64,000 bases of DNA from a virus. Lineage: Duplodnaviria; Heunggongvirae; Uroviricota; Caudoviricetes. The position numbers and the translations under genes are program-made. Below the pieces are notes generated by a model. The model did not search any database. It saw nothing but the letters and a program-made list of their open reading frames with translations, and was not told where the DNA came from. Positions 15,610 through 49,546 of this stretch are shown piece after piece; the stretch's first letter is position 1; the number at the start of each line of letters is the position of its first letter. The stretch covers positions 159,745 through 223,744 of IMG/VR virus record IMGVR_UViG_3300028591_000080; one strand, written 5' to 3'.

Positions 15610-15884
15610 ACCAATACATCTCCTCTGTTTTATTACATTATCATTATACTACAAAAAATAAAAAATGTAAATACTTTTTTGATAAAAATATAAAAAAATA
15701 TTGTATATTATTATATTATACAATTTTATTATATATTATACGCGCGTGTAAAGGGTCGGTATATTATACTAAGTATCTCCCTCGGCAACTAAAAATAATT
15801 AGTCTCTTAAATCACCTAGATTGAAACATGCACTCCGAGATTCAAGGTCCGGAAGTTGCTCGAAAAAATCTGTAAATACTTTGT

Positions 15885-15900
15885 ATAATATAGTGTAAGT
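15885..15900 (+). promoter_or_regulatory. plus-strand extended -10-like element (tttgTATAATat)
   Basis: Read directly; about 200 nt upstream of the plus-strand terminator at 16095-16131. Confidence 0.3.
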
Positions 15901-16094
15901 TCTAATGACTTAGAAAAATACTGAAAAGTAAATTTACTAAGCAGCCATTCCTCCTGGCTGATAGAACTTATAAAACGACTAAGAGCGAGTGATCCTAAAG
16001 ATATAGAATTTTTCTTTATCTATAACTAATAGGTGACTCGGTACTAGTGGTACACTCTTAGGAAGTTTTTCATTCATCTTTCCTCCTTTCTATA

Positions 16095-16131
16095 GAACTA
16101 GACAATTCCTCCTGTCTAGTTCTTTTTTTTT
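16095..16131 (+). terminator. intrinsic terminator on the plus strand (gaactagaca/tgtctagttc stem, 9-nt T-run)
   Basis: Perfect 10-bp stem followed by tttttttttt, read directly. Confidence 0.55.
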
Positions 16132-16354
16132 CGCCTAGAAAATATTTAAAACCCTACCCGTAGCTAACTAAATTATTTTAGTACATTAGCTAGCTCGGTG
16201 GTCCGTGTCTCTCCAGGAAAAACACCAGCCGAATCCACTGTGATTTGGTCCGCTCATCCTCGCGCCAAAATAAAAAAGTACTAAAAACTTTTAGTACTCT
16301 TACTCTCGCGCACGCGCCTGTACACGCACCCAAAACACTGTAAATTGGAAAACG

Positions 16355-16500
16355 CTGTAATGTCCAAATCCCGGCAATTTGGCTGAAAACCAGGTGGATT
16401 CCAAAACCCGGCGATTTCGACCAGGCTAAAATGCAGTAAATTCCAAAACCCGGTAAATTCGGCCTATAAAAACAAAAATCCAAATCCCGGTAAATTCAGG
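16355..16500. repeat. four direct iteron-like repeats (tccaaaWcccggYRaWttYRg) at 35-41 bp spacing
   Basis: Copies at about 16364, 16399, 16440 and 16477; the local GC content is well above the rest of the window. Confidence 0.55.
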
Positions 16501-16514
16501 ACTCGGATTTTTTC

Positions 16515-17351
16515 TTACTCGTAAAAGTGTATGAAACCGTTAAATAAACCTATAAGATCTTTTATAGAATTTATTCTATTATTATAATTACTCCAGTCAA
16601 GCGTGTCGTCAGTATCTTTTAAATGAACAATACATCTAATACCTAGAGAATTAAATGATCTACTAATTCCACTTATACCATTGTCCGCCCATTCACTACC
16701 TTTAACTAATCCACTGTATGGAGCTTTATTATCTTCGTCAAATTCTCTTATAGCATCAGGTCTATAATAAGAATCTAAAATAAATTCTATTCTAATTAAA
16801 TCCTCTTTCAACCCACCAGCATTCTTTACATTAATATTTACTGTAGTACACTCTTCGTCAGTAGACACGCTAGTAATAAAAGCATTTATGTCATACTTGC
16901 TGGTAATTCTATTCTTATTAACTAATAACCACTTATTAAATAATCCTACAAAAGTATAAAAAACTTTTAGATAACATACGACCCATGCTGTGATGTTAAC
17001 CTCATGTCCGAAGGTTATATACTCGTCAGGAGTAATTCGCTGAGCCTTCATCATGTCCTCAGTAACTCTAGTCGGAAGAAGTATGTTAGCATCTACGTCA
17101 TGATCTACGCTCGAGTTAGCCACTGACTGTCCGTTGTTATACCAAGCGTCATAATCGCAAGTCATTCCCGGCAAGTAGTAATCGTTCTTATCTAAGTATT
17201 CATCGAGCGCTGCTAGGACCACGTCGTCCCAGTAGTCGAACATGACCTTCGGCAAGATGCAATCCTGCACGGAGTTGCTGAATCGAGCTCGCAATTCCTT
17301 GTACGGCATCACGTTTCCGGCGAATAGCTTGATGTAATTGTTATTGTTCAT
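16515..17351 (-). CDS. hypothetical protein (278 aa) with a GC-rich 5' third
   Basis: ORF; the composition shifts sharply (5' third GC-rich) against the 30 % background. Confidence 0.5.
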   Translation of the reverse strand: MNNNNYIKLFAGNVMPYKELRARFSNSVQDCILPKVMFDYWDDVVLAALDEYLDKNDYYLPGMTCDYDAWYNNGQSVANSSVDHDVDANILLPTRVTEDMMKAQRITPDEYITFGHEVNITAWVVCYLKVFYTFVGLFNKWLLVNKNRITSKYDINAFITSVSTDEECTTVNINVKNAGGLKEDLIRIEFILDSYYRPDAIREFDEDNKAPYSGLVKGSEWADNGISGISRSFNSLGIRCIVHLKDTDDTLDWSNYNNRINSIKDLIGLFNGFIHFYE

Positions 17352-17489: not shown

Positions 17490-18629
17490 TTACTTTATAT
17501 TCTGTATTATATAGTCTAAGTAAGGAGTTAGTAGTTCTTTATATTTATCTAGAGAGAATTTTGTTTGTAGTCTAGATATATCTACTGCTGTTTTTATTAA
17601 TAATTCTTTTTTTACTTCTAGTAGCTGTGCTTTAGTACTAAAACTAAAATATTTTCCGTAAGTATAGGTAGTTAGCCATAGCCAGTCTCCAGCCCACATT
17701 GTTATTGGTGTTTTTGCTGTTCTTCCTTCTTTAATACCTATACCAGGTTTACTTACTCAAGTATCTGTTATTTTACCTGTAATATCTTTTATTTCTACTA
17801 CGAAAGGTTGTTCGACATGTTTGTGGTGTATTGCTTCTATAAAATATATATTTATATCTACTTTTAATTTATTTATTGCTCCACCATTAACCGTCTTTAT
17901 TAACTGTAATACTGGTTTATAGAATATTAAAGAATTTTTTATTAGATTCTTTATAGCGAGTTTTACTGCTGTAAGTACTTGATCTCTCGGACTAACTCGA
18001 GTTAATACTATATCATTAAAACAGTTTATAAAGCGTTCTATCGTTTCCATCTTGTCGTCATTATCTATTCCGAAATAATATATTCTATCTTTTAATGGCC
18101 ATTTTTCCTGATTATGACGATAAGTTGCATGTTCTACTTCATCATTTCCAAGTTGAATATCTATATTATTTATTTCTATATTTGAGTCGGTAAAGAACTT
18201 ATTTAGCTCTGCATCATTTTTTAATAACTTACTTACTTTATCTCTAGTTTCGTACATCTCCATATAAGAATCATATAAAAGACCACTTACAATCCCATCA
18301 TATTCTTGTACTGTACGTTTTGATGACATTTCTACTTGATCAAGTAGTAAGCCATGTTGTTTTACATATGTATAAGAGTCTTTTTGAATAATTCTTACAT
18401 AGTTTAATATTTTTTGATTAACTTCTATTCCTAAGGTTATTTTTAATTCTACAGGGTGTCCTAAGAAATAAGTACTATATAAAAAGTATTGTGATATTAT
18501 TTCTAATTCTGTTAGGTTTCCTTCAGGAGATAGATCCATTTTTCCAGTTGTAAAAGCTGATTTTAGTTTTGATTGACTGAATACTTCTATCTTCATTTGT
18601 TTCTCCATGTGTCCTTCAGCGAAAGACAA
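17490..18629 (-). CDS. paralog-array member P1, about 379 aa, with one in-frame TGA read as Trp at 17757-17759
   Basis: Track ORFs 17757..18629 and 17490..17699 share a frame and are separated only by the TGA; the fused C-terminus (DKYKELLTPYLDYIIQNIK) matches the C-terminus of paralog P2 (NDYYDLLKPYVGQIINDL). Confidence 0.6.
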
Positions 18630-18632
18630 TTA

Positions 18633-19763
18633 CTATAGATCATTTATGATCTGTCCTACATAAGGTTTTAAAAGATCATAATAATCATTGAAGTTTTTAG
18701 GTTGGAATTTTGCTAATGCCATGATTGTTTTTTCAAATAAAACTGATTTATTATTTTGTATTTTTGTTTTAGTATTTAAAATTATTCGATCAAAAATATA
18801 TTCTGGATACATTCCAGGATTATTCCAAAGCTTTCCAATTGTTATTCCTATAATATCATTTGTTACTGGAGCATTTGTTAGTTCTTTTACATCAAAGATA
18901 AATGTTGCATATAAATTTGGAATAAGATGTTCAACTCTTCCATCTGTTATCTCTACTCCTATTGGAAGAGTTTTCTCAGTGAAGTCAGGTTGAAAATAAA
19001 TATTTATACTTATACTAGGTATTTGTGTTTGTATAGCATGCCACTTATTTACTTTACTAATTAACTGCATAGCTTGTGGAGTAAATAAGAGTAATACATT
19101 TATAGATTTTATTATTATCTCTTCTAATCTTTCTTCTAGTCTTTCATTAGGTTGGCGGTATTGTACTTGTTGAGAAAAATATAGTGGAAGTCTTTCGTCT
19201 AGATCATTTAAACTATCTACATAAGTTAGTCCACTTGAATTATCGGCTAATGGTTTTAAAAAATATCTATCTATAGCTATATCAAGATGTTGAACCGTAT
19301 TAAGTTCTATTCTCTCTTGATCCATGTAAGATTCGTATTTTAAATTTATTTCATATAAAGATAATCTATGATCTGATACACATTTAAGTATGTTGGGATT
19401 CTTAGCTAATTTAAGTCCAACTTTAGCATTTAGTTTTTGAAGATCTTTTTTTCTTACATCTAGATTTTTAGCATAGTCATAAACTTTCTGTACAGTAACA
19501 CAACCATTAATCTCTTCATCCTCATATCCAGTTTGCATTAACCAAGTATATGTTTCATCTATTATTGTTTTTAAATTAGTTAAGATTGCATTAGTTATAG
19601 GTAAATGTAATCTTTCTTTTATTTCATTTGTATAAGTTAAGAAAAATGCTGCATACACAAGTTGATGTATTGCATCATCTGCATGAATAATAGGATTTTT
19701 CCATTTTCCAGTTTTATATATTTGTTCTAACTTTTCTGGCGATAAATTTTTTATCCATATCAT
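18633..19763 (-). CDS. paralog-array member P2 (376 aa)
   Basis: Shares N-terminal (HQLVYAAFFLTY), central and C-terminal blocks with P1 and P3. Confidence 0.6.
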   Translation of the reverse strand: MIWIKNLSPEKLEQIYKTGKWKNPIIHADDAIHQLVYAAFFLTYTNEIKERLHLPITNAILTNLKTIIDETYTWLMQTGYEDEEINGCVTVQKVYDYAKNLDVRKKDLQKLNAKVGLKLAKNPNILKCVSDHRLSLYEINLKYESYMDQERIELNTVQHLDIAIDRYFLKPLADNSSGLTYVDSLNDLDERLPLYFSQQVQYRQPNERLEERLEEIIIKSINVLLLFTPQAMQLISKVNKWHAIQTQIPSISINIYFQPDFTEKTLPIGVEITDGRVEHLIPNLYATFIFDVKELTNAPVTNDIIGITIGKLWNNPGMYPEYIFDRIILNTKTKIQNNKSVLFEKTIMALAKFQPKNFNDYYDLLKPYVGQIINDL

Positions 19764-19773
19764 ATTTTATCTC

Positions 19774-20826
19774 CTAAAATTTCATTCGATCAACAAGTGC
19801 ATCAACTGCATTTGCCCAATGAATATTATCTTCATGTTGCATTAAACCTAAAGCTAATGTGAGATTACGGAAGATAGATTTAGCATTCGACTTCATACTA
19901 GCTTTATTACTACAATCATACCCAAAGATTGTTGTAACTGGTTCACCTATTCTAGTAATAGGTTTAGTTTTATCTGTTTGTGTTTTATATGTACAATCTA
20001 CACTTGCTCTTGAAATATATGGAATAGCATCAATGTGTGCATCTTCGAATTCAATTACTATTCTTAATTCATCTAAAAATTTATCTAGATCTAAATTAAC
20101 AACAACTTTAAGTTCTAGACTATTTAAATAAACCTTATGATTATTATGGTTCTTTAAAATTAAATATACTAATTGTGTAGCTTGCTTATTTAATAAGAAT
20201 ATTCTTTTAAGTCCATCTAAAACTAAATGTTTTATTTCTGTATGTAAATAACTATTCTGAGTTAAAAGTGTATATATATTTCCAAATCTTAATGAACGAT
20301 TTTTATCATTAACAAGTGCTAAGAATTCTTTATCTATTGCTATTGTTAATGGTAGATTTAGTGCCAAGTCGAATCTATTTAATTTAATATCTAAGTCTTC
20401 TAATTCAATACGTGATTCTTTAAGAAATTTTACTAAATCTGGACTTGTTGAAATAGTATCATATAAATCTTGTTCGTTATTTATTATGGCTTTATTATGT
20501 TCTAGTCTATGCTTTACAAATTCGTAAACATCTCTAAGTGTACATTGATCATTGACAACATTATCTAATAAATTTAAATCTTTTAATTCATAATAAGCTT
20601 CCATAAAGACACTATCAACATTAACTAAAACACTATATACCCAGCTTATTCCAAGTCTATTATATAATTCATCTTTATAATGTAAAAAGTAGGCACTATA
20701 TATAAAATAGTGCACTAACTCATTAATTTTTTCAGCCTCAGTTAAATTAGGATCAAATTGTCCGATTCTACCATTCGTGAACGCTACACTTAATGCATGT
20801 TTGCTGAATGCTTGTAATTTAAACAT
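19774..20826 (-). CDS. paralog-array member P3 (350 aa)
   Basis: ELVHYFIYSAYFLHY aligns with the P1 and P2 N-terminal blocks; the C-terminal KTKPITRIGEP block also matches. Confidence 0.6.
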   Translation of the reverse strand: MFKLQAFSKHALSVAFTNGRIGQFDPNLTEAEKINELVHYFIYSAYFLHYKDELYNRLGISWVYSVLVNVDSVFMEAYYELKDLNLLDNVVNDQCTLRDVYEFVKHRLEHNKAIINNEQDLYDTISTSPDLVKFLKESRIELEDLDIKLNRFDLALNLPLTIAIDKEFLALVNDKNRSLRFGNIYTLLTQNSYLHTEIKHLVLDGLKRIFLLNKQATQLVYLILKNHNNHKVYLNSLELKVVVNLDLDKFLDELRIVIEFEDAHIDAIPYISRASVDCTYKTQTDKTKPITRIGEPVTTIFGYDCSNKASMKSNAKSIFRNLTLALGLMQHEDNIHWANAVDALVDRMKF

Positions 20827-20836
20827 AAATCTCCTC

Positions 20837-21913
20837 CTAATTTATTTGACTAAGTATTGGTTGTAATTCATTATACCAGCTTATGGCAGTTGTAGAATTA
20901 TTACCAATTAAACCACAAATGTTTGATAATATTTGTTTCTTATTCTTTCCGAGTTCTGTTACTGATGTAAATTGTACTCCAAATACCCAAGAAGATTTAA
21001 TCGTAGTAATTATTCTACCTGTAGCATCGATTTCAAAATCTACTAAAGATATGAGTTTAGATGAACGATATTTATCTGATAAGAAATTAAAATAAACATG
21101 GTATTTATTTAATTGACCAGAATCTTTAGTAATATCTATAAATAATGATAAATTAAAATTAGAATCAGAAGAAGTTAAATTTTTATTAGTAATGATTTTG
21201 TCTACAATCTTTTTTGAAGCTGGCCATAATGCAAATAATAAAGTTGTAGCATTTATATATGCACTTGATAAAGCAGATTTGAATTGTGGTTGATTTAATA
21301 ATTCATCTTCTGGTAAATCAAATTTATAACCATTAGCTTTCCAAGCATTTACATCTTTAAATAGATTATTTAGTCCAGAATAAAGGCCTTGAGATTGATT
21401 TAGATTAAGTTGAATATCTGTAATTCCGATTTTATTATCTACAAAAAATTGTTTACTTCTAGCTGTATCTATTGTTATTTTTCTAATATCTAATGCTTTA
21501 GTATTAATTTCTGAAGCTTTAAAGTCAAAATACTTTTTAGTATATTGATATAAGTCAGAAACTGTAACTCTTTGAGAATCAAAACTTAATATTTCATTTA
21601 TACCATTTTGGACTGGATGCTTATTTTTAGAACTTGGATTATCTATCGCATTAAATGCTGCCTCTACTACTCTTAAAGCTCCTTTAGTATAAGCCTTATC
21701 ATATTTATGAGCTCCACTATGTTTATCTCCAAACTCCATTAATGCATTTTTATTTACTGTAAATAAGCATGCCCAAGCAAATAGATCTAATAATTTTTGA
21801 GGGTTCATATTATAATTTCTTGCTGCTCCATCAAAAATTTGTTTAGATAATTTGAATTGAAAGTCAGGACTTCCTTCATAACTATAAGCAATATTTGTTA
21901 TATAAGTACTCAT
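20837..21913 (-). CDS. hypothetical protein, possible distant member of the same array (358 aa)
   Basis: Same size, tightly packed in the same operon; similarity weak. Confidence 0.45.
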   Translation of the reverse strand: MSTYITNIAYSYEGSPDFQFKLSKQIFDGAARNYNMNPQKLLDLFAWACLFTVNKNALMEFGDKHSGAHKYDKAYTKGALRVVEAAFNAIDNPSSKNKHPVQNGINEILSFDSQRVTVSDLYQYTKKYFDFKASEINTKALDIRKITIDTARSKQFFVDNKIGITDIQLNLNQSQGLYSGLNNLFKDVNAWKANGYKFDLPEDELLNQPQFKSALSSAYINATTLLFALWPASKKIVDKIITNKNLTSSDSNFNLSLFIDITKDSGQLNKYHVYFNFLSDKYRSSKLISLVDFEIDATGRIITTIKSSWVFGVQFTSVTELGKNKKQILSNICGLIGNNSTTAISWYNELQPILSQIN

Positions 21914-22181
21914 TCTATATTTCTCCTTAAATTATTTTTATCTCAAATAATGGATTTATTATTTTTTCTATACTACTATTTCCTAAATATCTTATTGGAT
22001 AATCAATAGCTCTTTTAAGCATATAGTGAGAGATAGAAATCCTTGATAAATTATTATTAGCATCTATATTATTATACACATTTTTTGCTCTTGGATCTTC
22101 TTTTACAACGAAAATTATATCACAATCTGCAGTCTCTAATTTAGATGTATCTTGATCTAAGCTATTGATACGAAAACTAGA

Positions 22182-22922
22182 TTTAACTCTTAAATAATTT
22201 TCACCATTTTTAGAAGGTTCTATTGAATAATATCATTGAGTTGTAAAATATTCATAATCTAGTTTCTTTTTCTTTCCGTTCTTAGTTGTTATTATTTCTA
22301 GTCCATGTATAAAATTATTTATTAATACATTTGATTTATATGCTGCGATCATAAAAATATCGTTTGTCATATCTGCATTTATAGAACAAGAGGCTTCCGA
22401 AATAGAACTTAATTTTCCATCTAAAACATCAAAAAATAATTGACGAACATCTTTACTATCTGACCTATCATTCCAAAGTCTAACAGGATTTTTAAACTTT
22501 ATTATTTTTAATTTATCTAAATTTTTTATTGCAGTAATATATTTATTAGAGTTCTTATTCATAGTATAATTTTTCTCTATATTACTTGTAACACTTTTAT
22601 AAACATCATTTCCTAATTTTTCAAGATCTCAAATTCTTCATCTTGAGTTAGGGCTTTGAACATGGCAAATATAACTTGAAACAATTTCATTCATATCTCT
22701 AGCAGCTTGCATACATGGAAGATATACTTTTTCATAGTAGTCCATATTACAAGTATTATAAAAAGTAACTAAAGAATAAAAGATAATTCTTAAAACCATT
22801 TCACTACCTTTATTAGGAATTCTAGATAGTTTTTTATATCCATTTGCTCAGTTACTAAGGTCTGTTACTAATGATACACTACGGTTTCCATCATTTGGAA
22901 GTCTAATTTGTATAACAGCCAT
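22182..22922 (-). CDS. hypothetical protein, about 246 aa, with 4 in-frame TGA codons
   Basis: Extends track ORF 22233..22562 upstream to an ATG with AGGAG RBS and downstream through its TGA to a TAA; Trp-plausible contexts (LSNWANGY, NSRWRIWDLEK). Confidence 0.5.
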
Positions 22923-22999
22923 TTTTAACTCCTTTAAGATTTTTAAACTTTTTATATATTTTAAATACTTTACAAAGTTTAAATATTTTAAATACTTTT

Positions 23000-23480
23000 A
23001 TTTTTTTACTAATTTTCAACCTAAGTCTGTGTAGAACTTAATTTTATCTATAAAAACTTCTCTAGTTTTACCGTCACGTTCTAATAAGACTCAGTTGCTA
23101 GGATCATTTAATCTTTTCATTCTAGCTTTTTCTGGATCTTTATCATTTAAGTATTCTCTTAATTCTTTAGCTTCAAAGTCTCTTCTATAAGTTAATTTAG
23201 AATCGTTTTCTCTACCACCATAAGATTGATTATAACCAACTAAAGGATTACGTGAATCGAATTTTTTAATTCAATATTGTTCTCTTTCATCTAATTGTTC
23301 TTGAGATGAGCATCTTTCTATTAATTCTACTATGAAGTTTTCTCTTCCATACTTTAACATAGCAGCTTGAATTAATGTTCCAGAACCTTTATATTTTTTA
23401 GTAAACTTTGCTCTAGCATGTTGACCAATATAAATTTTCTTATTTATTAGGTTTGTAGTTTTATAAATATAACCTCACAT
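23000..23480 (-). CDS. GIY-YIG homing endonuclease, about 160 aa, with 4 in-frame TGA codons
   Basis: GYIYKTTNLINKKIYIGQ matches the GIY-YIG motif; the conserved Trp of the ExxxWI block (EQYWIKKF, compare I-TevI ENFWIKEL) is encoded by TGA; GGAGAG RBS. Confidence 0.6.
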
Positions 23481-23489
23481 AAAACTCTC

Positions 23490-23774
23490 CTAAGATTTTA
23501 TTCATGTTCTTTCATCATCAGCTTCTTCATAATCATAATCAGGATCGCGCCTAGGAGCGTTTTGTTCTTTAGGTGTATAAATTAATTCATTCTTTGTTTC
23601 GGACAAATAGGCGCCGTCTATATAAATAAGTTGATGAAATCTATTACGACTTAATCTTCATCTAATATTATTAAAAGCTTTTTGAGGAGAGTCTGCAGTC
23701 GTGCCAACGTTTACTCAAGCTATTTCTCTATCATCTTTATCAAAAACAGGTCCATTGTATGTATAAGCACTCAT
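23490..23774 (-). CDS. hypothetical protein, about 94 aa, with 3 in-frame TGA codons
   Basis: ATG with RBS; reading through TGA gives EIAWVNVG, NIRWRLS, ERTWIKS; ends at TAG. Confidence 0.45.
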
Positions 23775-23852: not shown

Positions 23853-24893
23853 TTACTTTTTATCTCTTAATGTTTCAGCTAATTCCAATACAAGCTTTTC
23901 TGTCTTTTCCCAACCAAGACATGGATCTGTGATTGATTTACCATATACTCCACCGTCTGGCTTTTGACAACCATCTTCAATATAAGATTCAATCATTAGT
24001 CCTTTAACTAATTTCTTAATATCTGGATTGTGGTTCATACTATATAAAACTTGTTTAGCAATTCTGATTTGTTCTTCAAATTTCTTATTTGAATTAGCAT
24101 GATTACAATCTACGATACAAGCTGGATTTTTTAGTTCAGTTTGCTTATATAATTCATCTAATAATTCTAGATCTTCATAGTTGTAATTAGGTCTATTCTC
24201 ACCATGCTTGGTATTATAACCTCTTAAAATACTATGTGCATATTCATTACCTTTAGATTCGACTTCCCAATTTCTATAAATAAATGTATGAGGATGTTGA
24301 GCAGCTTTAATTCCATTAATCATTACTGATAGATTTCCGGATGTAGGATTTTTCATACCAACAGGAATATTTAAACCAGAAGCTACTAATCTATGTTCTT
24401 GGTTTTCAACTGATCTTGCACCGACAGCTACATAACTTAACAAATCATTTATATATCTATGGTTTGCTGGATATAATAATTCATCTGCAGTTGAGAAACC
24501 TGTTTCTTCTAAAACCTTCATATGTAATCGTCTTACAGCAATAATACCTTCAAGCATATCAGGTTTATCTGTAGGATTTGGTTGGTGTAATAGTCCTTTA
24601 TAACCATCACCTGTAGTTCTTGGTTTATTCGTATAAACTCTTGGAACTATAAATATTACATCTTTAACTTTTTCATAAAGCTTTCTTAATCTCTTACAAT
24701 AATCTAATACTGCGTCTTCTCTATCGGCAGAACAAGGACCTATAATTAATAATAATTTATTACTCTTACCACTAATAATATTTTTTACTTCGTTATCATT
24801 AGCTTCCTTTACTTTAACTAAATCTTCTCTTAATGGAAACATCTCTTTAATTTCCATTGGTATTGGAAGCTTACGTTTAAATTCCATATTCAT
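23853..24893 (-). CDS. 3-deoxy-7-phosphoheptulonate (DAHP) synthase, class I alpha (AroG-like)
   Basis: Collinear with E. coli AroG: LLLIIGPCS, KPRTT, GARSVENQEHR, CIVDCNHANS, GKSITDPCLGWE. Confidence 0.8.
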   Translation of the reverse strand: MNMEFKRKLPIPMEIKEMFPLREDLVKVKEANDNEVKNIISGKSNKLLLIIGPCSADREDAVLDYCKRLRKLYEKVKDVIFIVPRVYTNKPRTTGDGYKGLLHQPNPTDKPDMLEGIIAVRRLHMKVLEETGFSTADELLYPANHRYINDLLSYVAVGARSVENQEHRLVASGLNIPVGMKNPTSGNLSVMINGIKAAQHPHTFIYRNWEVESKGNEYAHSILRGYNTKHGENRPNYNYEDLELLDELYKQTELKNPACIVDCNHANSNKKFEEQIRIAKQVLYSMNHNPDIKKLVKGLMIESYIEDGCQKPDGGVYGKSITDPCLGWEKTEKLVLELAETLRDKK

Positions 24894-31213: not shown

Positions 31214-32785
31214 TTAGTCCTTCTTAGTTGTAGAAGGCTTCTTTGTTGTAGGTGATTCCTTAACTTCGAAAGCATCATTCTTTACTGAGTTAGAAATTAG
31301 CTTTCCACCTAAAGTACCTACCAATAATGACTTAATATCTAAGCCAGTTGCTTGTTCAAGACCAGCGAAGATTTGAGTACCGTTCTTAGTAATTTCTTCA
31401 TTAAGCTTTGCAGTATTGCCTTCACCATACATTGTAATATTACCAATATGAGACATAGCTTCAGCCATAGGCTTAGAGTATGCTTCAACAACCTTAGGTA
31501 ATACATCAGATTCTAGAATCATCTTTAATGTAGCAGCTTCACCATATTGCTTCATCGCATCAGCTTTCTTTAAGATAGCTTCAGCTTCAGCCTTACCTTT
31601 AGCTTCAATACCTTCAGCTTCAGCAAGTGCAGCTTGCTTCTTAGCTTCAGCTTCTGCAACCATTGCTTCCTTCTTAGCATTAGCTTCGATAATTTGAGCT
31701 TCAGCAGCTTGTTGACGAGCAGCTTTTTCTGCAGCAGCCTTAACCTTAGCCATTTCAGCTTGACGTTGTGCTTCTGCTAATTCAGCTTCAGCAGCCTTAG
31801 TTCTCTTGTAAAGATCCGCATCAGCAGCCATTTGTGCAGCATACTTTTCAGCATCAGCTTTCTTATTAACTTCAGCTTGTAATCTCTTTTCAGTTAATTC
31901 AACTTCTTGAATTCCTAATTGAACTTCTCTTTGACGCTTAGAAATCTCAGCATTAATTGTTGCAGTATTAATAATTTCTTGTTGCTTTTGTTGTTGAATC
32001 TTATAAGCAGCATCTGCATCAGCTCTTGCTGTATCAGACTTTTGCTTTAATGAAGCAGCTCTTAATTCATATTCAGTATTTTGCTGAATGATTGTTGTAT
32101 CAGACTTAACCTTAGCTTCATTTGCATCTTGTCTAGCTTGTGCTTGAGCAATGTTTACATCTCTATCAGCATTTGCTTTAGCAATAGCAGCATCCTTAGA
32201 GATTTGAGCGATGTTATCGATACCTAAGTTTTCAATAACACTATTGTCATCAGTAAAGTTTTGAATATTAAAGTTTACTACTTCGATACCAATTGCAGCC
32301 ATATCTGGAGTAACATTTTCCTTAACCTTATCAGCAATACCTTTACGATCTTGAACCATATCTCTAATCTTAGATGCACCAACGATTTCACGAATATTAC
32401 CTTCAAGTACTTGGATAACTTGATCTTCAATATCTTTCTTAGACTTATTTAATAATGATTCTGCAGCTCGTTGTAACATTTCTGGAGTAGAACCAATTTT
32501 AATATTTGCAACGGCATCTACATTAACATTAATGAATTCATTTGTAGGAACTGAATTTCTAGTCTTAATATCAATAGACATTAAAGATAATGATAACTTA
32601 TCAACTCTCTCAAAGAAAGGAATTCTAAAACCTGCCTTACCAACAAGTACACGTTGTCTACGAGGACCTGTGATAATAACAGCCGTATCTGTTGGAGCCT
32701 TAGTATATCCTGCTGCTAAGAATATAATTAATAAGAATAAAAGCGCTCCGGCGATACTTAAACCAATTATTAAACCTAAATTCAT
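31214..32785 (-). CDS. flotillin-like SPFH/band-7 membrane protein with long Ala/Glu/Lys coiled coil
   Basis: N-terminal TM helix, SPFH core (VIITGPRRQRVLVGKAGFRIPFFERV), then a roughly 200-aa AEAK-rich coiled coil. Confidence 0.65.
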   Translation of the reverse strand: MNLGLIIGLSIAGALLFLLIIFLAAGYTKAPTDTAVIITGPRRQRVLVGKAGFRIPFFERVDKLSLSLMSIDIKTRNSVPTNEFINVNVDAVANIKIGSTPEMLQRAAESLLNKSKKDIEDQVIQVLEGNIREIVGASKIRDMVQDRKGIADKVKENVTPDMAAIGIEVVNFNIQNFTDDNSVIENLGIDNIAQISKDAAIAKANADRDVNIAQAQARQDANEAKVKSDTTIIQQNTEYELRAASLKQKSDTARADADAAYKIQQQKQQEIINTATINAEISKRQREVQLGIQEVELTEKRLQAEVNKKADAEKYAAQMAADADLYKRTKAAEAELAEAQRQAEMAKVKAAAEKAARQQAAEAQIIEANAKKEAMVAEAEAKKQAALAEAEGIEAKGKAEAEAILKKADAMKQYGEAATLKMILESDVLPKVVEAYSKPMAEAMSHIGNITMYGEGNTAKLNEEITKNGTQIFAGLEQATGLDIKSLLVGTLGGKLISNSVKNDAFEVKESPTTKKPSTTKKD

Positions 32786-37654: not shown

Positions 37655-38218
37655 TTATTCAAAATATTTCTTAACAATAATTTGGCAGTCTCTCATAACT
37701 GTTAATGCGGCTTCATGAGCTTCAGGAGATAAACCTGCACATAAGTCATCATAAACATATACATCGATTTCTGGAAGTAAAGACTTAAGAATTAATGCAT
37801 TACTAATTACACAAATATCTGTACAAGTTCCTACAAGATTAATTCTCTTTACATCTGCAAGACCGTAATAGAAGTGTTCGTAGATAACTTCTTTCCAACG
37901 ATCCATGCTCATACCAAACGAAGGCTTAGTAACTAAGAAGCCATAACGAGAAGCTTCTAATAATTCCTTAACTACCTTATGTCCATCAGTTCCTTGAATA
38001 CAATGAGGAATAGGTAAGAACTTTCCTTCTCTTGAAGCCATATATCCTTGTTGGTGAGTATCTTGTGTAAATACTACAACTTCACCTCTTGCTTCAGATT
38101 CTTTAATAAATTGTACCATTGGTTTAACGATTGCTTGTGCAGCTGGATTAGCTAAGCTACCAGTTACAAAATCATTTTGCATATCAATGATAATTGTTAA
38201 TGTCTTATTATTTTCCAT
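37655..38218 (-). CDS. pncA: nicotinamidase (isochorismatase family, PncA)
   Basis: TLTIIIDMQNDF, catalytic Cys in VGTCTDICV; likely start MENNKT directly after the pncB stop (the track ORF has a spurious N-terminal extension). Confidence 0.7.
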   Translation of the reverse strand: MENNKTLTIIIDMQNDFVTGSLANPAAQAIVKPMVQFIKESEARGEVVVFTQDTHQQGYMASREGKFLPIPHCIQGTDGHKVVKELLEASRYGFLVTKPSFGMSMDRWKEVIYEHFYYGLADVKRINLVGTCTDICVISNALILKSLLPEIDVYVYDDLCAGLSPEAHEAALTVMRDCQIIVKKYFE

Positions 38219-38220
38219 AA

Positions 38221-39474
38221 TTAAGCCTCCTCGTTTTCTAATCTCCAGTTGATTGCATCCTTTAGATGAACTGTATATGCTGGATCTGGACATAATGTTT
38301 TACCCTTATCATCAGATACCTTTGCAACTGGCTTACCATTTACATATTGTAATTTCATAACAATATTTAATGGTCTGACAGTAGAGTCATTTGTAATGAA
38401 GGTACCAATACCCGCAGCAAATTTCATACGACCATCTACATAGTTATAGATTTCTAAACACTTATCAAAGTCATAAGAGTTAGATACTAAGAATGTTTTA
38501 GTCTTTGGATCAACACCTTCAGCTTCATAAGCCTTAACAAAGTTATCAATATGTTCGTGGTCATCGCCAGAGTCTGTTCTAACACCCATAAATTGTCTCA
38601 TGAATAATCTCTTGAATCCTCTTAAGAATAACTTAGTTGTTAATGTATCTGTTAATGCAATACCTAAGTCACCTTCAAATGTTTCTAGCCATTCTTGTAA
38701 TGCAGCTTCTACTGAATATGCTACTTGAATTCCTTTAACACCTTGGAATAGCATTGTATATTCATGAGCGAATGTTCCGATAGGAGTAACACCATATTTC
38801 ATAGCTAAATAGATATTTGAAGTACCACTAAAGATTCCAGATTCACAACCATTAGCTACGATAAAATCTTGAAGCTCTGGTAAGTTTCTACGTCTTGTAC
38901 CAAATTCTGCGATCTTACCTTTAAGTGGCTCATACTTTCCACCTTTTTCAAAACCAGCAGCCTTTGCAGCCCAACGCTTAATTCCTTCATTATAAATATT
39001 ATCATAAGTATCATTAAATAAATTCCATACATAAGATACAATTGATAAAGTATAGATTTCAAATTGAGATACAATATATACTGGACCTTCAGCTTCGATA
39101 TGTAAATCTCCATTTTCATCTAATTCAAATCTAGTTAAATATCTTAAATCTAATGTAAGGTGTCTTAATAATTCTAATGCACCTTTATGTTTTCTTAAGT
39201 GACGAATATTCTTTAAGTAATCAAGCTCAGCATCTGTCCAGTGTAATGTTGCTAAGTGTTCAAACTGTCTCTTTATTTCTCTGAACATTTCTGGAGTGAA
39301 CTTTGCATCCTTTGTTCTATTAACAAAGATATACTTTGTGATATCATTTGCATGATGTTCTAATTGAGGAATAAACATATATACTTTATAAGCATCCTCT
39401 TCAGATAAATAATGGATAGCATAACCATCTTTGTAATTAATAGGGCACTTTAACCCAGCTTCTGTAATTTTCAT
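38221..39474 (-). CDS. pncB: nicotinate phosphoribosyltransferase (PncB)
   Basis: Collinear with E. coli PncB: EFGTRRR, GTSN, TPIGTFAHEY, LGIALTD, RTDSGD, KPLNIVMKL, NGKPVAKVSDDKGKTLC. Confidence 0.85.
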   Translation of the reverse strand: MKITEAGLKCPINYKDGYAIHYLSEEDAYKVYMFIPQLEHHANDITKYIFVNRTKDAKFTPEMFREIKRQFEHLATLHWTDAELDYLKNIRHLRKHKGALELLRHLTLDLRYLTRFELDENGDLHIEAEGPVYIVSQFEIYTLSIVSYVWNLFNDTYDNIYNEGIKRWAAKAAGFEKGGKYEPLKGKIAEFGTRRRNLPELQDFIVANGCESGIFSGTSNIYLAMKYGVTPIGTFAHEYTMLFQGVKGIQVAYSVEAALQEWLETFEGDLGIALTDTLTTKLFLRGFKRLFMRQFMGVRTDSGDDHEHIDNFVKAYEAEGVDPKTKTFLVSNSYDFDKCLEIYNYVDGRMKFAAGIGTFITNDSTVRPLNIVMKLQYVNGKPVAKVSDDKGKTLCPDPAYTVHLKDAINWRLENEEA

Positions 39475-39564
39475 ATTTTAATTCTCCTTAATTATTTATT
39501 TAATATAGTCATCTTGACTATTATATTATACAATAAAATTTAGGAAATTTTATTCTTAATTTCC

Positions 39565-40080
39565 TTAAATCTTAATTAATTCTTGAACATTGCCTTTTAA
39601 ATTAAATATTATATAATTCTCATTGTCCCAGCAATTAGTAATATGGACAATCGAATCCCAGTCTGCTTCGCTTGGATTAGGAAATTCCATTCTATGCCAA
39701 TCTTTAATTAATTTATCTTCAGGCATTGTTCTATATCTATTTTTATTACCTTCTAAACATTTTTCGAGTGGAGCTGTGACCCAAAGTAAATGATGCTTGA
39801 AAGTTGGAAACCATTCAATTAATTGCCTACGTTGAGCAACAGTTAATGCATTAGTAGTTAATAATACATCATGGTCTTCCAATTCTACTTCATGTAGAAC
39901 TTTAAATAATAAATGCCAAACCTCAAAACTATTTTTATGGATTCGCTCATCACCATTTATTAATTTATAAAAATCATCAACGTCATAAAAAACTATATTA
40001 GGATTTTTACCGATTATTCTTTTACTTAATACAGTTTTTCCACCACCTGATATTCCACATACTAAATAGAAATTAGCCAT
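39565..40080 (-). CDS. P-loop nucleotide/nucleoside kinase-like protein
   Basis: Walker A GISGGGKT at the N-terminus; 171 aa; substrate unknown (nicotinamide-riboside or polynucleotide kinase are options). Confidence 0.45.
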   Translation of the reverse strand: MANFYLVCGISGGGKTVLSKRIIGKNPNIVFYDVDDFYKLINGDERIHKNSFEVWHLLFKVLHEVELEDHDVLLTTNALTVAQRRQLIEWFPTFKHHLLWVTAPLEKCLEGNKNRYRTMPEDKLIKDWHRMEFPNPSEADWDSIVHITNCWDNENYIIFNLKGNVQELIKI

Positions 40081-40505
40081 TATAACACCTCAAAATAGTT
40101 TAAAAACTTAGTTATATCTAAATAATATTCATGACCTTCTTTTATATCCTCATCAGAATATTTTAAAACTTTAATTGCATTATCAGAAAGTCTTGCATCA
40201 AAATTTTTATGAATCCAATCATATACATAGGTATTTGCATTATTCCAAATATAAACTAATTGCTTTGGAAGGCCATACTTTTTAAATAGTTCAGTCACTA
40301 AATATTTCATAGTCAATCTTCCATAACCTTGATGCTGATAATTCTTATTAGCATACCATTGAGAGATTGTCCACTTATTATTTGTGTCAACGCTTATTGT
40401 GCACTTACAAATATATTCATTTAAAAATTCTTCTGTAAGTAAACTTTCATAAACAAAAGTTAACTTAGAATTATTTATTAATTTGTAAGTTAACACAATA
40501 ACCAC
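40080..40505 (-). CDS. GNAT-family N-acetyltransferase
   Basis: QHQGYGRL acetyl-CoA-binding motif. Confidence 0.5.
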   Translation of the reverse strand: MVIVLTYKLINNSKLTFVYESLLTEEFLNEYICKCTISVDTNNKWTISQWYANKNYQHQGYGRLTMKYLVTELFKKYGLPKQLVYIWNNANTYVYDWIHKNFDARLSDNAIKVLKYSDEDIKEGHEYYLDITKFLNYFEVL

Positions 40506-41225
40506 CTACTTTAATCTATACACTTTACTAGGTCTCTTAGAAAATTCTGTACTTTCTAATCCATCAATAACTTCTAATCGATCACCATATCTTTTCAAGA
40601 TGTCTCTTCTAAAATTAGCTAAGCCGATTTTCTTATTTAAAATAGCTTCATATACTAATTTTAATTCATATAATGTAAATGATTTTTTTGATTTTAAAAA
40701 TTCAAAAGCAATATCTGTATAATCTAATTTTCCTTGTAATCTTTTTACTGTATCTTCAATGATTTGTTTATGATCAAAAGCCATAGAACAATTAAATGTA
40801 AATGGACATACCCATCCACTATTAGTTTCAGCTTTAGATTCTTCTGGTAAATAACACATAGCATTTACTGGTAGGATAGAATAATAAACTACTGATATAA
40901 CTCTTGTTCTTGGATCTCTATCTACTGCACCATAAGTATATAATTGTTCAATATGAATTTTATCTGGATCTAAATTTGGATAAGTTATTTTATCTTTTAA
41001 TTTAAATCTAACATTATCCTCTAAAGAAAGATTAGGCTGAACAAATCCTCCAGGAATTTGTAGCATGTCTTTAAATGGATAATCTTTTCTTTTAGTTACT
41101 AAAACTTCTAATTTATAAGAATTACCTAATTGATGCATACTTAAGATTACAACGTCTGTTGCAATAGATGGTCTATCCTTAAATTCATTAACATTATAAT
41201 CTTTTAAAAAGTCTTGTTCAGTCAT
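40506..41225 (-). CDS. Nudix-fold protein with C-terminal winged helix, NrtR-like (ADP-ribose-responsive regulator family)
   Basis: Nudix-like N-domain (GGFV), C-terminal blocks MAFDHKQII, FTLYELKLVYEAIL, NFRRDI that I recall as NrtR signatures. Confidence 0.45.
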   Translation of the reverse strand: MTEQDFLKDYNVNEFKDRPSIATDVVILSMHQLGNSYKLEVLVTKRKDYPFKDMLQIPGGFVQPNLSLEDNVRFKLKDKITYPNLDPDKIHIEQLYTYGAVDRDPRTRVISVVYYSILPVNAMCYLPEESKAETNSGWVCPFTFNCSMAFDHKQIIEDTVKRLQGKLDYTDIAFEFLKSKKSFTLYELKLVYEAILNKKIGLANFRRDILKRYGDRLEVIDGLESTEFSKRPSKVYRLK

Positions 41226-41235
41226 AACCTAACTC

Positions 41236-42375: not shown

Positions 42376-42376
42376 A

Positions 42377-43360: not shown

Positions 43361-43368
43361 TATGACTA

Positions 43369-46624: not shown

Positions 46625-47435
46625 CTTAATTTCCAAGTTTACTTAGTAATGAATCTAAAACTATTTCTTTAATTAATGGCATTAGTTCCATCATATAGTC
46701 ATCTTCTATTTTATCATTAGCTCATTTAATTTCTAAGTGTCCACCACATTCTTTTGGACATGGTGCATCATGCATTATAATAGCTACAATTACTTTAACC
46801 ATTGTCATATCTTTAAATTTAAGAAATGAGCGTGGTGTTTTTTCATATAATTCTATTTCATCAATGTCGCCATTTGAACATCCGATAGTAAGAGCTACTT
46901 CATCTTTATTTCTTGCTGCATAGATAGCATTTTCTACAGCACCTGGATGAGCTTGAATTGGATAAGTTAATCCTAAAATTCGAGTAATTTCTGCTGCGTA
47001 TTTTAGTCAACATTCTCCATGACCATCATCAGCTCTATAATAATCTTCTATCTCTTTTGTTGGAAATACTTTTTCACCGTGTTCTTCATCTGCTCAAATG
47101 TTTAGACGTTTATCATTTAACATTTCAACATCTACTAAATAATGACAATATTCATGTGCAAAAGTATTTTCAAATAATTCTTCCAATCCGTTCTTTAATA
47201 CATATTGACTAACTTCTATTTGAATCATAGCCTCATGATGTAATACGTCTCTACCAAATAAAGTACTACCTAAAGTATTGGTTGAATCATATCCTTTAAG
47301 TGATACTCCTAATAAACTAGGATTTGGTTTTCAATCTGGATGAGCTTTAGATATTTTAAATAAAACTTGATTAGCAATAAACATTGCTAAATCTTCTTCC
47401 ATATAATCATTTTTATCTTCAAATAAATTAACCAT
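46625..47435 (-). CDS. HExxH zinc-metallopeptidase-like protein, about 269 aa, with 4 in-frame TGA codons
   Basis: ATG with AAGGAG RBS 9 nt upstream; FAHEYCHYLVD HExxH motif; all four Trp positions (HPDWKPN, LNIWADE, GECWLKY, EIKWAND) are TGA; ends at TAA; invisible to the standard-code ORF track. Confidence 0.55.
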
Positions 47436-47475: not shown

Positions 47476-48765
47476 TTAACTTGTATGTTCGACATTATAT
47501 CTTGTAGTTTGATCACTTGCAAATTTAATTAAATCTTCCTTATTATTTTTTAAGATTCCACTATAAACTTCAATTAATGTCATCTCTAATGCAGTTCTAA
47601 TTTGTTTTCCTTTATAACCTAAAGCAATCATATCATTACCATCAACTGCTAATTGATTTAAAGAATAACAACCGCTTTCAAATACTAAATTAATAACTTC
47701 TGTTGAATTAAAATAATATCTGTTAATAGCGTCAATAAATACAAAAGCATCTTGAATTTCAAGTAATTTTCTTACTAGCCATTCAGCATCTTTATTAGAA
47801 TAACCATATGTATCAACTAATCTATGACCTAAAGCTCCAACACTGTCTGAGTCATCAAGATTAACCTTTCTAACTTCTCTACTTAATACTTTAATTAATT
47901 TTGTATCTTTTGTTGAAAATTTTAAACGAGTTAAAATAGCTTCAGTTTGTTCAGGAGTTAAGTATGAACAAATTCCAATAAAGTTATCAACATAATGATC
48001 AGTCACAAGCTTAAATAATTGCTTATTTAAGTACTTAAATTCAGGAATAATATGATAAATAATAGCACCAGGCATAAATCCTTGCATTAAATCACCAACA
48101 GTCTCATAATCAAAGATTCTAATAATCTCATCATGGATTCTTTCTGCAGAAATACTATCTAATAAATCTTCTTGGAAAAACATTGCGTACATAGTTCCAT
48201 TCTCAATATGGAAATTATACTTGCATGCAAATCTAAGACCACGCAAGATTCTTAGAGCATCCTCTTTAAATCTTTCTTTAGGGTCTCCAACTGCACGAAC
48301 AATACCTTCTTTTAGGTCCTTTAATCCACCAAATGGGTCAATTACAGTATCACCGCTGTTATATGCCATCGCGTTGATAGTAAAGTCACGTCTAGCTAAA
48401 TCTTTTACAATATCTTTAGTAAATTCAACAGATTCAGGGTGTCTATTATCTTTATATTCGCCATCAATACGATATGTAGTGATTTCAATATTCTCTTCAT
48501 TGTATCTAACTGTTACAGTTCCGTGCTTTTCTCCATTGTTATTAATGATAGGATAATCTTTAAATACTTCTTTAATTTCATCAGGAGTCGCATTAGTAGT
48601 TAAGTCAATATCTTTAATTGAATGACCTAATAAAAGGTCCCTTACCGCTCCGCCGACAATATAAGCTTCATATCCAGCAGTTTCAAGTTTATTAAAAACA
48701 AATTGTACAATATCTTTTTGCTTAGCTGTAAGTAAATCAAATAAATTATTTGACACTTTAATCAC
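47476..48765 (-). CDS. cca: tRNA nucleotidyltransferase (CCA-adding enzyme)
   Basis: Pol-beta-type head YIVGGAVRDLLLG ... DIDL ... RDFTINAMAY; 429 aa. Confidence 0.75.
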   Translation of the reverse strand: MIKVSNNLFDLLTAKQKDIVQFVFNKLETAGYEAYIVGGAVRDLLLGHSIKDIDLTTNATPDEIKEVFKDYPIINNNGEKHGTVTVRYNEENIEITTYRIDGEYKDNRHPESVEFTKDIVKDLARRDFTINAMAYNSGDTVIDPFGGLKDLKEGIVRAVGDPKERFKEDALRILRGLRFACKYNFHIENGTMYAMFFQEDLLDSISAERIHDEIIRIFDYETVGDLMQGFMPGAIIYHIIPEFKYLNKQLFKLVTDHYVDNFIGICSYLTPEQTEAILTRLKFSTKDTKLIKVLSREVRKVNLDDSDSVGALGHRLVDTYGYSNKDAEWLVRKLLEIQDAFVFIDAINRYYFNSTEVINLVFESGCYSLNQLAVDGNDMIALGYKGKQIRTALEMTLIEVYSGILKNNKEDLIKFASDQTTRYNVEHTS

Positions 48766-49546
48766 CTTCTTTTAAATAATATTTTTTAAAGCGTAATAAA
48801 CTTTCATTTGTAAAAGTTATTTGTCCTGCTTTATATAACTCAACTATAAAAGGACGAGTTAACTGTTTAAAATCTTTGTTTGAAAATAAAACATATTCTA
48901 GATTATTATTTGAACAGTAGGTTTCAGCCGCTTGCTTTTTTAATAAAACAACCTCTGAACTTAACTCTCTAAAATCTTTAATCTCATATAAATATTTATT
49001 ATCGACCAAAAAGTCTGGTCTATATTGATGGATAGTTCCACTGGTATCACTATAATAAATGGTCATAGTTTCTGCTGATTTAATTGTATGATTTTCATTT
49101 AACATTTTATAGATAAATGATAATTCAACAAGAGACCTAAATAGATATCCAGAATACCAACCAGCATAACCACGACCATTAACTGGGTTATCTTCAGTAA
49201 ATTTATGTGGATTATTTATTCCTTTTGCAAAATAATGATGATTAGCTTTTCAATCATCACTCTTAAAACGTTCTGTCAAAGACTTACCTAATTGTTTCTT
49301 ATTATATTCTGCCCAAGTATAAGTACGTATACCTTTTTGATAATCTTCATGTTGACGACAGCCTCTACATAGGTCTCTATCATCTCTTTTTTTAAAATTT
49401 AATTGTTGTGAATGATAATTTATCTTATAAATTTTACCGCATACATCACATCTAACTTCGATAATATCACCAGTACTAAATCCTACCCTTCCTTTTTTAA
49501 ATCCATGTGCACCTGCTTGTAATATTCTTGGTTTACTAAGTATCAT
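48758..49546 (-). CDS. zinc-finger plus PD-(D/E)xK nuclease-domain protein (homing-endonuclease-like), about 262 aa, with one in-frame TGA
   Basis: Track ORFs 49250..49546 and 48758..49105 share a frame, separated only by TGA; N-terminal CDVCGK...CRGCRQ, C-terminal YRPDFLVDNKYLYEIKDF (PD...EIK). Confidence 0.55.

What the first reader, a model, noticed from the sequence alone, without database searches (positions are those of the whole stretch)
17490..18629. A single TGA splits a paralog-family gene; read-through restores the family C-terminus
ORFs 17757..18629 and 17490..17699 share a frame and are separated by one TGA plus 19 sense codons. The fused 379-aa product matches the length of its tandem paralogs (376, 350, 358 aa). 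Its C-terminus LDKYKELLTPYLDYIIQNIK aligns with NDYYDLLKPYVGQIINDL of P2. This is independent support for TGA read-through in a non-mobile gene that is probably expressed late.
Basis: seen in the sequence. Interest (0 to 1): 0.75.

Follow-up and report, generated by a model that had tools for sequence, protein, structure and literature searches.

The report
TGA read as tryptophan in phage
The "split" gene is one intact 368-codon gene of an uncultivated rumen jumbo phage that reads the stop codon TGA as tryptophan, a kind of genetic-code change already described in gut phages, so this is a clean new example and not a new phenomenon.

Summary
On the minus strand, one TGA (17757-17759) separates a 279-codon part from an 88-codon part of one frame (gene 18596..17490). 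The fused 368-aa product aligns end to end with three tandem paralogs.

Five further ortholog lineages (79-97% identical, from more than ten independent assemblies) all keep this TGA and the downstream frame. dN/dS downstream is mostly 0.2-0.7, against 0.25-0.5 upstream. The downstream ATG is not conserved.

Between lineages, TGA and TGG replace each other at six Trp sites in four genes, and never another codon. A TGA in the GIY-YIG gene aligns with the conserved Trp of I-TevI. In about 100 genes of the window there are 17 in-frame TGAs in six genes. No gene is unambiguously terminated by TGA.

So TGA means Trp here (code-4-like recoding), rather than site-specific leaky read-through.

The decoding agent was not found. 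There is no tRNA(UCA), RF1 or TrpRS in the window or its flanks; 21 tRNAs and a tmRNA were seen. The claim of late expression is untested. The paralog family is a lineage-restricted ORFan.

Verdict: a new member of a known kind (TGA-recoded gut phages, Borges et al.). Its TGA use is sparse, at 7% of Trp codons.

The parts
17490..18596 (-). One gene, 368 sense codons (counting the TGA as Trp) plus a TAA stop. It is the fourth member (P1) of a tandem paralog family.
   Evidence: The orthologs P0001 and P0002 were called as 368 aa with W at the TGA.
17757..17759 (-). In-frame TGA, codon 280 of the gene, read as Trp.
   Evidence: It is conserved as TGA in all six lineages. There is no RNA structure around it (z=-0.05).
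17493..17756 (-). The 88 codons downstream of the TGA, which form the family C-terminus (two predicted helices).
   Evidence: The frame stays open in all lineages. L014 carries an in-frame 3-codon insertion. dN/dS is 0.2-0.7 in most pairs. Similarity to the P2 C-terminus is shown.
17697..17699 (-). It is not a conserved start.
   Evidence: It is ACN (Thr) in L001, L004 and L007. There is no Shine-Dalgarno sequence upstream, and protein conservation begins right after the TGA.
18633..19763 (-). Paralog P2 (376 aa)
19774..20826 (-). Paralog P3 (350 aa)
20837..21913 (-). Paralog P4 (358 aa)
21927..22922 (-). 331-aa gene of unknown function with 4 in-frame TGAs (22848, 22638, 22629, 22233). It is not a detectable paralog.
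   Evidence: The TGAs at 22638 and 22233 are TGG in other lineages.
22998..23480 (-). GIY-YIG homing endonuclease, 160 aa. All four of its Trp codons are TGA (23475, 23271, 23091, 23016).
   Evidence: Pfam GIY-YIG gives 4e-5 and PHROG 314 gives 1e-31. The TGA at 23271 is TGG in L007 and L013 and aligns with the Trp of I-TevI in ERENFWIKE.
23490..23774 (-). 94-aa gene with 3 in-frame TGAs (23715, 23658, 23502). The last lies 3 codons before a TAG and is ambiguous.
46626..47435 (-). SprT-like protein with an HExxH motif, 269 aa. It has 4 TGA and 0 TGG.
   Evidence: All 4 TGAs are kept in 8 loci.
48758..49546 (-). TnsA-like / PD-(D/E)XK homing-type endonuclease, 262 aa, with 1 TGA at 49250. It is present in some near-identical contigs and absent from others.
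16474..16512 (-). Terminator-like hairpin after the 278-aa gene that follows the paralog array.
   Evidence: This is a consensus match only.

Best explanation
Gene 18596..17490 is a single gene. Ribosomes insert tryptophan at its one TGA and continue to the TAA at 17490, giving a 368-aa protein. This protein is the fourth tandem copy of a phage-lineage-specific family of unknown function.

The reason is that this phage treats TGA as a Trp codon throughout and does not use it as a terminator (code-4-like recoding). The phage is uncultivated and comes from ruminant gut metagenomes. It is a jumbo phage with 29% GC; related contigs reach 175-245 kb.

What is shown:
- The TGA and the downstream frame are conserved.
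- The downstream part is under purifying selection.
- TGA and TGG interchange between lineages.
- TGA terminators are absent.

What is inferred:
- The decoding agent is a phage-encoded suppressor tRNA-Trp(UCA), possibly helped by RF1 or TrpRS as in published TGA-recoded phages, acting in a standard-code Bacillota host.
- TGA is strongly avoided in most genes, which suggests that its decoding is costly or limited in time.
For: 1. The TGA sits at the same codon in six lineages. They are 79-97% identical in protein, with pairwise dS up to 0.4, and come from more than ten independent assemblies. The downstream frame stays open to the same double stop.
2. Downstream dN/dS is 0.22-0.69 for pairs without L014, against 0.25-0.51 upstream. 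L014 has an in-frame 3-codon insertion.
3. Within this gene, TGG in the window is TGA in L013 (column 306) and in L001-L003 (column 312). Under the standard code those orthologs would be cut twice.
4. Across four real genes, six sites swap TGA and TGG between lineages, and none swaps TGA with any other codon.
5. The GIY-YIG TGA aligns with the Trp of I-TevI.
6. Among about 100 minus-strand genes, the stops are 77 TAA and 23 TAG. Every TGA-terminated segment of at least 45 codons that lies in a gene's own frame is inside a longer open frame (one further such segment is out of frame inside gene 16515-17351). One TGA, 3 codons before a TAG, is ambiguous.
7. There are 17 in-frame TGAs against 213 TGG. 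Other NNA/NNG codon pairs are 65-98% A-ending.
8. There is no start signal for a separate downstream ORF.
9. Published precedent exists: TGA-to-Trp phages of animal guts, including roughly 200-kb Jade phages of Firmicutes and cattle Agate phages (bioRxiv 10.1101/2021.08.26.457843).
Against: - No tRNA with anticodon UCA, and no RF1 or TrpRS, was found. The search covered the 64-kb window, about 40 kb of flanks from near-identical contigs, and the 21 tRNAs of the reachable part of the tRNA cluster.
- There is no protein-level evidence.
- The host and its genetic code are unknown.
- TGA is rare here. It lies in homing endonucleases, a SprT-like gene and ORFans, not in recognisable late genes, which does not match the published late-gene pattern.
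- Trp at this position is not conserved in the paralogs, so this site alone does not identify the amino acid.
Confidence: 0.85

Rival explanations
1. The host itself uses genetic code 4 (for example a Mycoplasmatota-type bacterium that lacks RF2). The phage then needs no machinery of its own, and TGA is simply one of its two Trp codons.
For: TGA is never a clear terminator. No suppressor tRNA was found in the sequence within reach. The DNA ligase is closest to those of Bacillota phages, and Mycoplasmatota derive from that phylum (own knowledge).
Against: With an A-ending preference of 65-98% in other codon pairs, a native code-4 genome should prefer TGA. Here TGA makes up 7-8% of Trp codons and is absent from 94 of about 100 genes. 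A phage of 175-245 kb or more, with its own tRNA set and tmRNA, is an unlikely parasite of small-genome Mollicutes (inference).
Confidence: 0.12
2. The TGA is a site-specific programmed or leaky read-through signal. Most ribosomes stop and make a 279-aa protein, and a fraction reads through, for example with host tRNA-Trp(CCA). This would give two isoforms or a temporal gate.
For: The TGA is strictly conserved at this codon in all six lineages. UGA is naturally leaky as Trp in Bacillus subtilis (own knowledge: Lovett et al. 1991, not checked here). The truncated product would lose only two C-terminal helices (low-confidence model).
Against: There is no stimulatory RNA structure. Orthologs tolerate a second TGA in the tail. 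Other genes carry 3-4 TGAs each, which low-efficiency leak cannot serve. Eight or nine of twelve TGA sites compared are equally conserved, so conservation at this site is unremarkable.
Confidence: 0.1
3. The locus is a pseudogene or an assembly error, or it holds two separate genes (279 aa and 69 aa).
For: Standard-code gene callers report 277-281-aa products (P0003-P0005) and, in L014, a 69-aa ORF.
Against: The same TGA appears in more than ten independent assemblies. The tail is under purifying selection, and protein conservation starts at the first codon after the TGA. The downstream ATG is missing in three lineages, and the tail itself contains TGA in two lineages.
Confidence: 0.02
4. TGA encodes selenocysteine, or glycine as in code 25.
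For: Both are known alternative meanings of UGA in bacteria (own knowledge).
Against: TGA swaps only with TGG, never with TGC/TGT or GGN, inside genes. No hairpin follows the TGA. Genes carry up to four TGAs each.
Confidence: 0.01

Closest known systems
TGA-recoded (code 4, TGA to Trp) phages of human and animal guts: the Jade, Agate and some crAss-like clades of Borges et al. (bioRxiv 10.1101/2021.08.26.457843; published in Nat Microbiol 2022 per own knowledge)
   Same: It is an uncultivated, large, low-GC phage of an animal gut. In-frame TGAs restore full-length proteins when read as Trp. The standard code fragments its genes. Those authors also failed to find a suppressor tRNA in 65% of code-4 genomes.
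   Different: Recoding is sparse in this window: 17 TGAs in 6 of about 100 genes, and coding density rises by only about 6%. The TGAs lie in homing endonucleases, a SprT-like gene and ORFans, not in recognised structural or lysis genes. No code-change operon was seen. Clade membership was not tested.
Jumbo phages with alternative codes in rumen and gut surveys (Anim Microbiome 2026, PMC13037316)
   Same: These are rumen jumbo phages with many tRNAs and stop-codon recoding.
   Different: That survey calls recoding only when coding density rises by at least 10%. This window would fall below that cut-off, so such phages may be counted as standard-code.
Programmed UGA read-through extensions (for example the Qbeta A1 protein; own knowledge)
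   Same: A UGA is followed by an in-frame functional extension.
   Different: Here several genes carry several TGAs each, TGA and TGG are interchangeable, TGA is not used as a terminator, and there is no local signal.
Native code-4 genomes (Mycoplasma, Spiroplasma and their phages; own knowledge)
   Same: TGA means Trp and there are no TGA terminators.
   Different: Those genomes prefer TGA over TGG. This phage uses TGG for 93% of Trp codons despite a strong preference for A at third codon positions.

Membership tests
Code-4 (TGA to Trp) stop-codon-recoded phage | In-frame TGAs in conserved genes, whose translation restores full-length proteins | tested here: met
   The target gene aligns with its paralogs. 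The GIY-YIG, SprT-like and TnsA-like genes regain Pfam and PHROG matches when translated with code 4.
Code-4 (TGA to Trp) stop-codon-recoded phage | TGA positions correspond to Trp in homologs | tested here: met
   Six TGA/TGG swap sites in four genes, and no other partner codon. The TGA at 23271 aligns with the Trp of I-TevI.
Code-4 (TGA to Trp) stop-codon-recoded phage | TGA not used as a terminator | tested here: met
   There are 0 unambiguous cases in about 100 genes of the window. Two ambiguous TGAs lie 3 codons before a TAA or TAG, at 23502 and at L015 13441.
Code-4 (TGA to Trp) stop-codon-recoded phage | Phage-encoded suppressor tRNA with anticodon UCA | tested here: inconclusive
   None was found in the window or among the 21 tRNAs of the reachable part of the cluster. 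Most of the genome was out of reach.
Code-4 (TGA to Trp) stop-codon-recoded phage | Accessory code-change genes (RF1, TrpRS); these are optional, being seen in only two Jade genomes | tested here: inconclusive
   No Pfam match in the 36 window proteins that were scanned: 30 of the 48 ORFs of at least 150 aa, plus the TGA-containing genes. The rest of the genome was not seen.
Code-4 (TGA to Trp) stop-codon-recoded phage | Recoded codon concentrated in late structural and lysis genes | tested here: not met
   The TGA-bearing genes in this window are two endonucleases, a SprT-like protein and three ORFans. No structural gene was recognised in the window. This feature is typical of the kind but not obligatory.
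Code-4 (TGA to Trp) stop-codon-recoded phage | Host uses the standard code | not testable with these tools
   The host is unknown. The phage is absent from the GTDB genome scan and from IMG/VR.
Programmed site-specific stop-codon read-through | A local stimulatory context or structure, and a single dedicated site | tested here: not met
   The fold z-score is -0.05. The 17 TGAs share no common context, and there are many sites in several genes.
Selenoprotein gene | A SECIS hairpin after the UGA, and Cys in homologs | tested here: not met
Code 25 (TGA to Gly) | TGA aligned with Gly codons in homologs | tested here: not met
   Inside genes, TGA pairs only with TGG.

The most novel reading that the evidence does not exclude
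This lineage may represent a sparse or early state of code change. TGA has already been removed from terminator use, yet it serves as Trp in only a few non-structural genes. Among them are homing endonucleases whose Trp codons are all TGA, so these mobile genes can be expressed only in cells where TGA is decoded. Surveys that rely on coding density would miss such phages. The conserved TGA in the paralog could act as a timing gate for the full-length protein.
Probability: 0.3. Interest if true: 0.55.

Novelty: new member of a known kind. Interest (0 to 1): 0.35.

Why it matters
- Annotation: under the standard code, at least six genes of this 64-kb window are truncated or fragmented. Public protein sets hold both versions of this gene, 277-281 aa and 368 aa.
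- Detection: a phage can be recoded while gaining only about 6% coding density. Density thresholds of 10% therefore under-count recoding.
- Biology: the result adds nothing fundamentally new beyond published TGA-to-Trp phages. The exception would be if sparse use, with complete loss of TGA terminators, proves to be an intermediate stage of code change.

Tried and rejected
Searches for relatives that found nothing:
- Cultured or annotated phage relatives: no DNA match, no match for the 892-aa helicase-like protein. Only 37-40% identical ligases of Bacillota phages turned up.
- IMG/VR: three scans found nothing.
- GTDB genomes: two scans found nothing.

Function of the paralog family:
- Pfam and PHROGs gave no hits.
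- A profile search of 1.84 billion representatives found only the four paralog clusters and fragments.
- The AlphaFold model was too poor for a fold search (pLDDT 52).
- The flanking 331-aa and 278-aa genes are not paralogs.

Hunt for the suppressor tRNA:
- ARAGORN found none in the window or the flanks.
- A tRNA cluster lies about 14-20 kb beyond the high end of the window (L021, L022, L023). It contains no Trp or UCA tRNA.
- Relaxed ARAGORN settings gave only noise inside coding regions.
- A homolog of the endonuclease led to a different 224-kb phage (L024). It has tRNA-Trp(CCA) and ordinary TGA stops, but 40.6% GC, so it is not a fair control.

Other:
- Rfam found nothing in the window or in the gene-free 15.6-16.5 kb region.
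- The promoter scan was no better than shuffled sequence.

Full report
**1. The observation**

All long ORFs of the window lie on the minus strand. GC is 29%.

The ORF 17757..18629 ends in TGA. Nineteen sense codons later, in the same frame, comes the ATG of ORF 17490..17699, which ends TAA TAG.

The likely start is the ATG at 18596. It has GGAG six bases upstream, and every ortholog was called from it. The gene is therefore 279 codons, then TGA, then 88 codons, or 368 aa in all.

Three paralogs of 376, 350 and 358 aa lie head to tail upstream, separated by 10-36 bp. They align with the fusion over its whole length.
- BLASTP against P2 gives E=1e-7, and the alignment runs across the TGA.
- The 88-aa tail alone matches the last 66 residues of P2: BLASTP E=1e-4, Smith-Waterman z=7.5, 0 of 2000 shuffles reaching the score.
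- The tail matches the last 53 columns of a P2-P4 profile at E=7e-4.
- Against P3 or P4 singly the tail is not significant.

**2. Orthologs**

A search of 5.8 billion proteins found five clusters, 79-97% identical to the fusion. Two are 368 aa with W where the window has TGA. Three are 277-281 aa and end exactly at ...TDT.

Their DNA comes from 14 loci in more than ten assemblies. All five lineages have TGA at this codon. The 368-aa versions were simply called with code 4.

Downstream of the TGA:
- The frame stays open to the same double stop in every lineage.
- L014 carries an in-frame three-codon insertion.
- dN/dS is 0.22-0.69 for pairs without L014, against 0.25-0.51 upstream. The L014 pairs are inflated by its divergent insertion region.
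- The ATG at 17699 is ACN in three lineages. Protein conservation starts at the first codon after the TGA.

These results exclude a pseudogene, an assembly error and two separate genes.

**3. Which amino acid**

Within this gene, L013 has TGA where the others have TGG (TMWAG). L001-L003 have TGA at another TGG (WLWL).

Across the 20 kb shared with the other lineages, six sites in four real genes swap TGA and TGG. Inside genes, TGA never aligns with another codon. The other pairings in that output lie in out-of-frame pseudo-ORFs or upstream of start codons.

The TGA at 23271 in the GIY-YIG gene aligns with the Trp of I-TevI (EREQY-TGA-IKKF against ERENFWIKEL, chain 1LN0). That pairwise match is weak (E=0.13). 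Family membership is nevertheless solid, from Pfam at 4e-5 and PHROG 314 at 1e-31.

No hairpin follows the TGA. So TGA is Trp, not Sec or Gly.

**4. Extent in the window**

There are about 100 minus-strand genes.
- Their stops are 77 TAA and 23 TAG.
- Every TGA-terminated segment of at least 45 codons that lies in a gene's own frame is inside a longer open frame. One further segment (17200-17340) is out of frame inside gene 16515-17351.
- One TGA lies 3 codons before a TAG and is ambiguous.
- There are 17 in-frame TGAs against 213 TGG.

All 17 TGAs fall in six genes:

| Gene | Identity | TGA |
|---|---|---|
| 17490-18596 | target (P1) | 1 |
| 21927-22922 | 331 aa, unknown | 4 |
| 22998-23480 | GIY-YIG | 4 |
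| 23490-23774 | 94 aa, unknown | 3 |
| 46626-47435 | SprT-like | 4 |
| 48758-49546 | TnsA-like endonuclease | 1 |

- The TnsA-like gene is present in some near-identical contigs and absent from others, so it is mobile.
- The SprT-like gene keeps all four TGAs in eight loci.
- Other NNA/NNG codon pairs are 65-98% A-ending, while TGA is 8% of TGA plus TGG. TGA is therefore usable but avoided.
- Reading TGA as sense raises long-ORF coverage only from 53.3 to 56.7 kb.

**5. Mechanism**

Published TGA-to-Trp phages carry a suppressor tRNA in 35% of genomes, and RF1 plus TrpRS in two Jade genomes.

Here the window has no tRNA, no Rfam match, and no RF1 or TrpRS among the proteins scanned.

Near-identical contigs show a tmRNA about 6 kb beyond the high end of the window. 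Further out lies a tRNA cluster interrupted by endonuclease genes.
- 21 tRNAs were seen, and none is Trp or carries a UCA anticodon.
- Many amino acids are missing from the part seen, so the cluster clearly continues beyond reach.

The decoding agent therefore remains inferred. My estimates are about 0.55 for a phage suppressor tRNA in a standard-code Bacillota host, about 0.12-0.15 for a host that natively uses code 4, and the remainder for other routes.

Contig names point to sheep rumen and ruminant gut samples (SHIW14, XIEF21).

**6. The protein**

There are no Pfam or PHROG matches. A profile search of 1.84 billion representatives found only the four paralog clusters and fragments. The AlphaFold model is mostly helical but unreliable (pLDDT 52).

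The function is unknown and 'late expression' is untested. The neighbouring genes are DAHP synthase, dCMP deaminase, DNA ligase, a GP88-family protein, a SprT-like protein and an NAD salvage set.

**7. Verdict**

The accurate description is codon reassignment (TGA = Trp) in a recoded rumen jumbo phage. That is a known kind, and this is a new member of it, notable only for how sparsely it uses TGA.

Noticed in passing
L019 983-1356 and L021 9108-9481 (near-identical contigs, about 6 kb beyond window position 64000): The phage carries a tmRNA gene with tag peptide AKSIFNKIANFFRGFGAQRVAALA*. It lies between the tRNA cluster and the helicase-like gene.
   Followed up: partly
L021 599-3867; L023 155-414: A tRNA cluster of at least 21 genes is interrupted by TnsA-like homing endonuclease genes. 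It includes a 90-nt class-II-like tRNA with anticodon UUC (L023 244-333) and an 80-nt tRNA-Cys-like gene with C at position 33 (L021 2213-2292). There are also undetected tRNA-like pieces with perfect T-arms at L021 2709-2818 and 3700-3790.
   Followed up: partly
L021 1508-1632: A sub-threshold match to the Y RNA-like YrlA family (43.5 bits against a gathering score of 69) lies inside the tRNA cluster. A related 224-kb phage (L024 17694-19361) encodes a TROVE/Ro60-like protein.
   Followed up: no
window 16361-16501: Four copies of a 25-nt repeat (consensus about ATTCCAAAWCCCGGYRAATTYG) are spaced 37-42 bp apart. They sit in a roughly 900-bp gene-free, GC-richer stretch (15610-16514) that is also gene-free in the orthologous loci. 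The arrangement looks like iterons. Rfam finds nothing there.
   Followed up: partly
window 37655-44648: An NAD salvage and synthesis module: isochorismatase/nicotinamidase-like, NAPRTase, NrtR-like NUDIX, a deoxyribosyltransferase-like-NUDIX fusion, a CinA-like protein (named from locus annotation) and NAD synthase.
   Followed up: no
window 48758-49546 compared with L026, L028, L031 and L032: The TnsA-like endonuclease gene upstream of the CCA-adding enzyme is present in the window and in L027, but absent from otherwise 98-100% identical contigs. This is a presence/absence polymorphism typical of homing.
   Followed up: partly
L004 and L014 (orthologs of window 16515-17351): The 278-aa gene next to the target has TGA in these two lineages where the window has TGG (codon 254). 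Which genes carry TGA therefore differs between lineages.
   Followed up: yes
L023 1-148: The tail of another ORF at the upstream edge of the tRNA cluster also carries an in-frame TGA (…VEK-TGA-KAFPDN…).
   Followed up: no
window 23853-24893 and 31214-32785: The phage encodes a DAHP synthase (class I) and an SPFH/flotillin-like protein of 523 aa. Both are unusual auxiliary genes.
   Followed up: no
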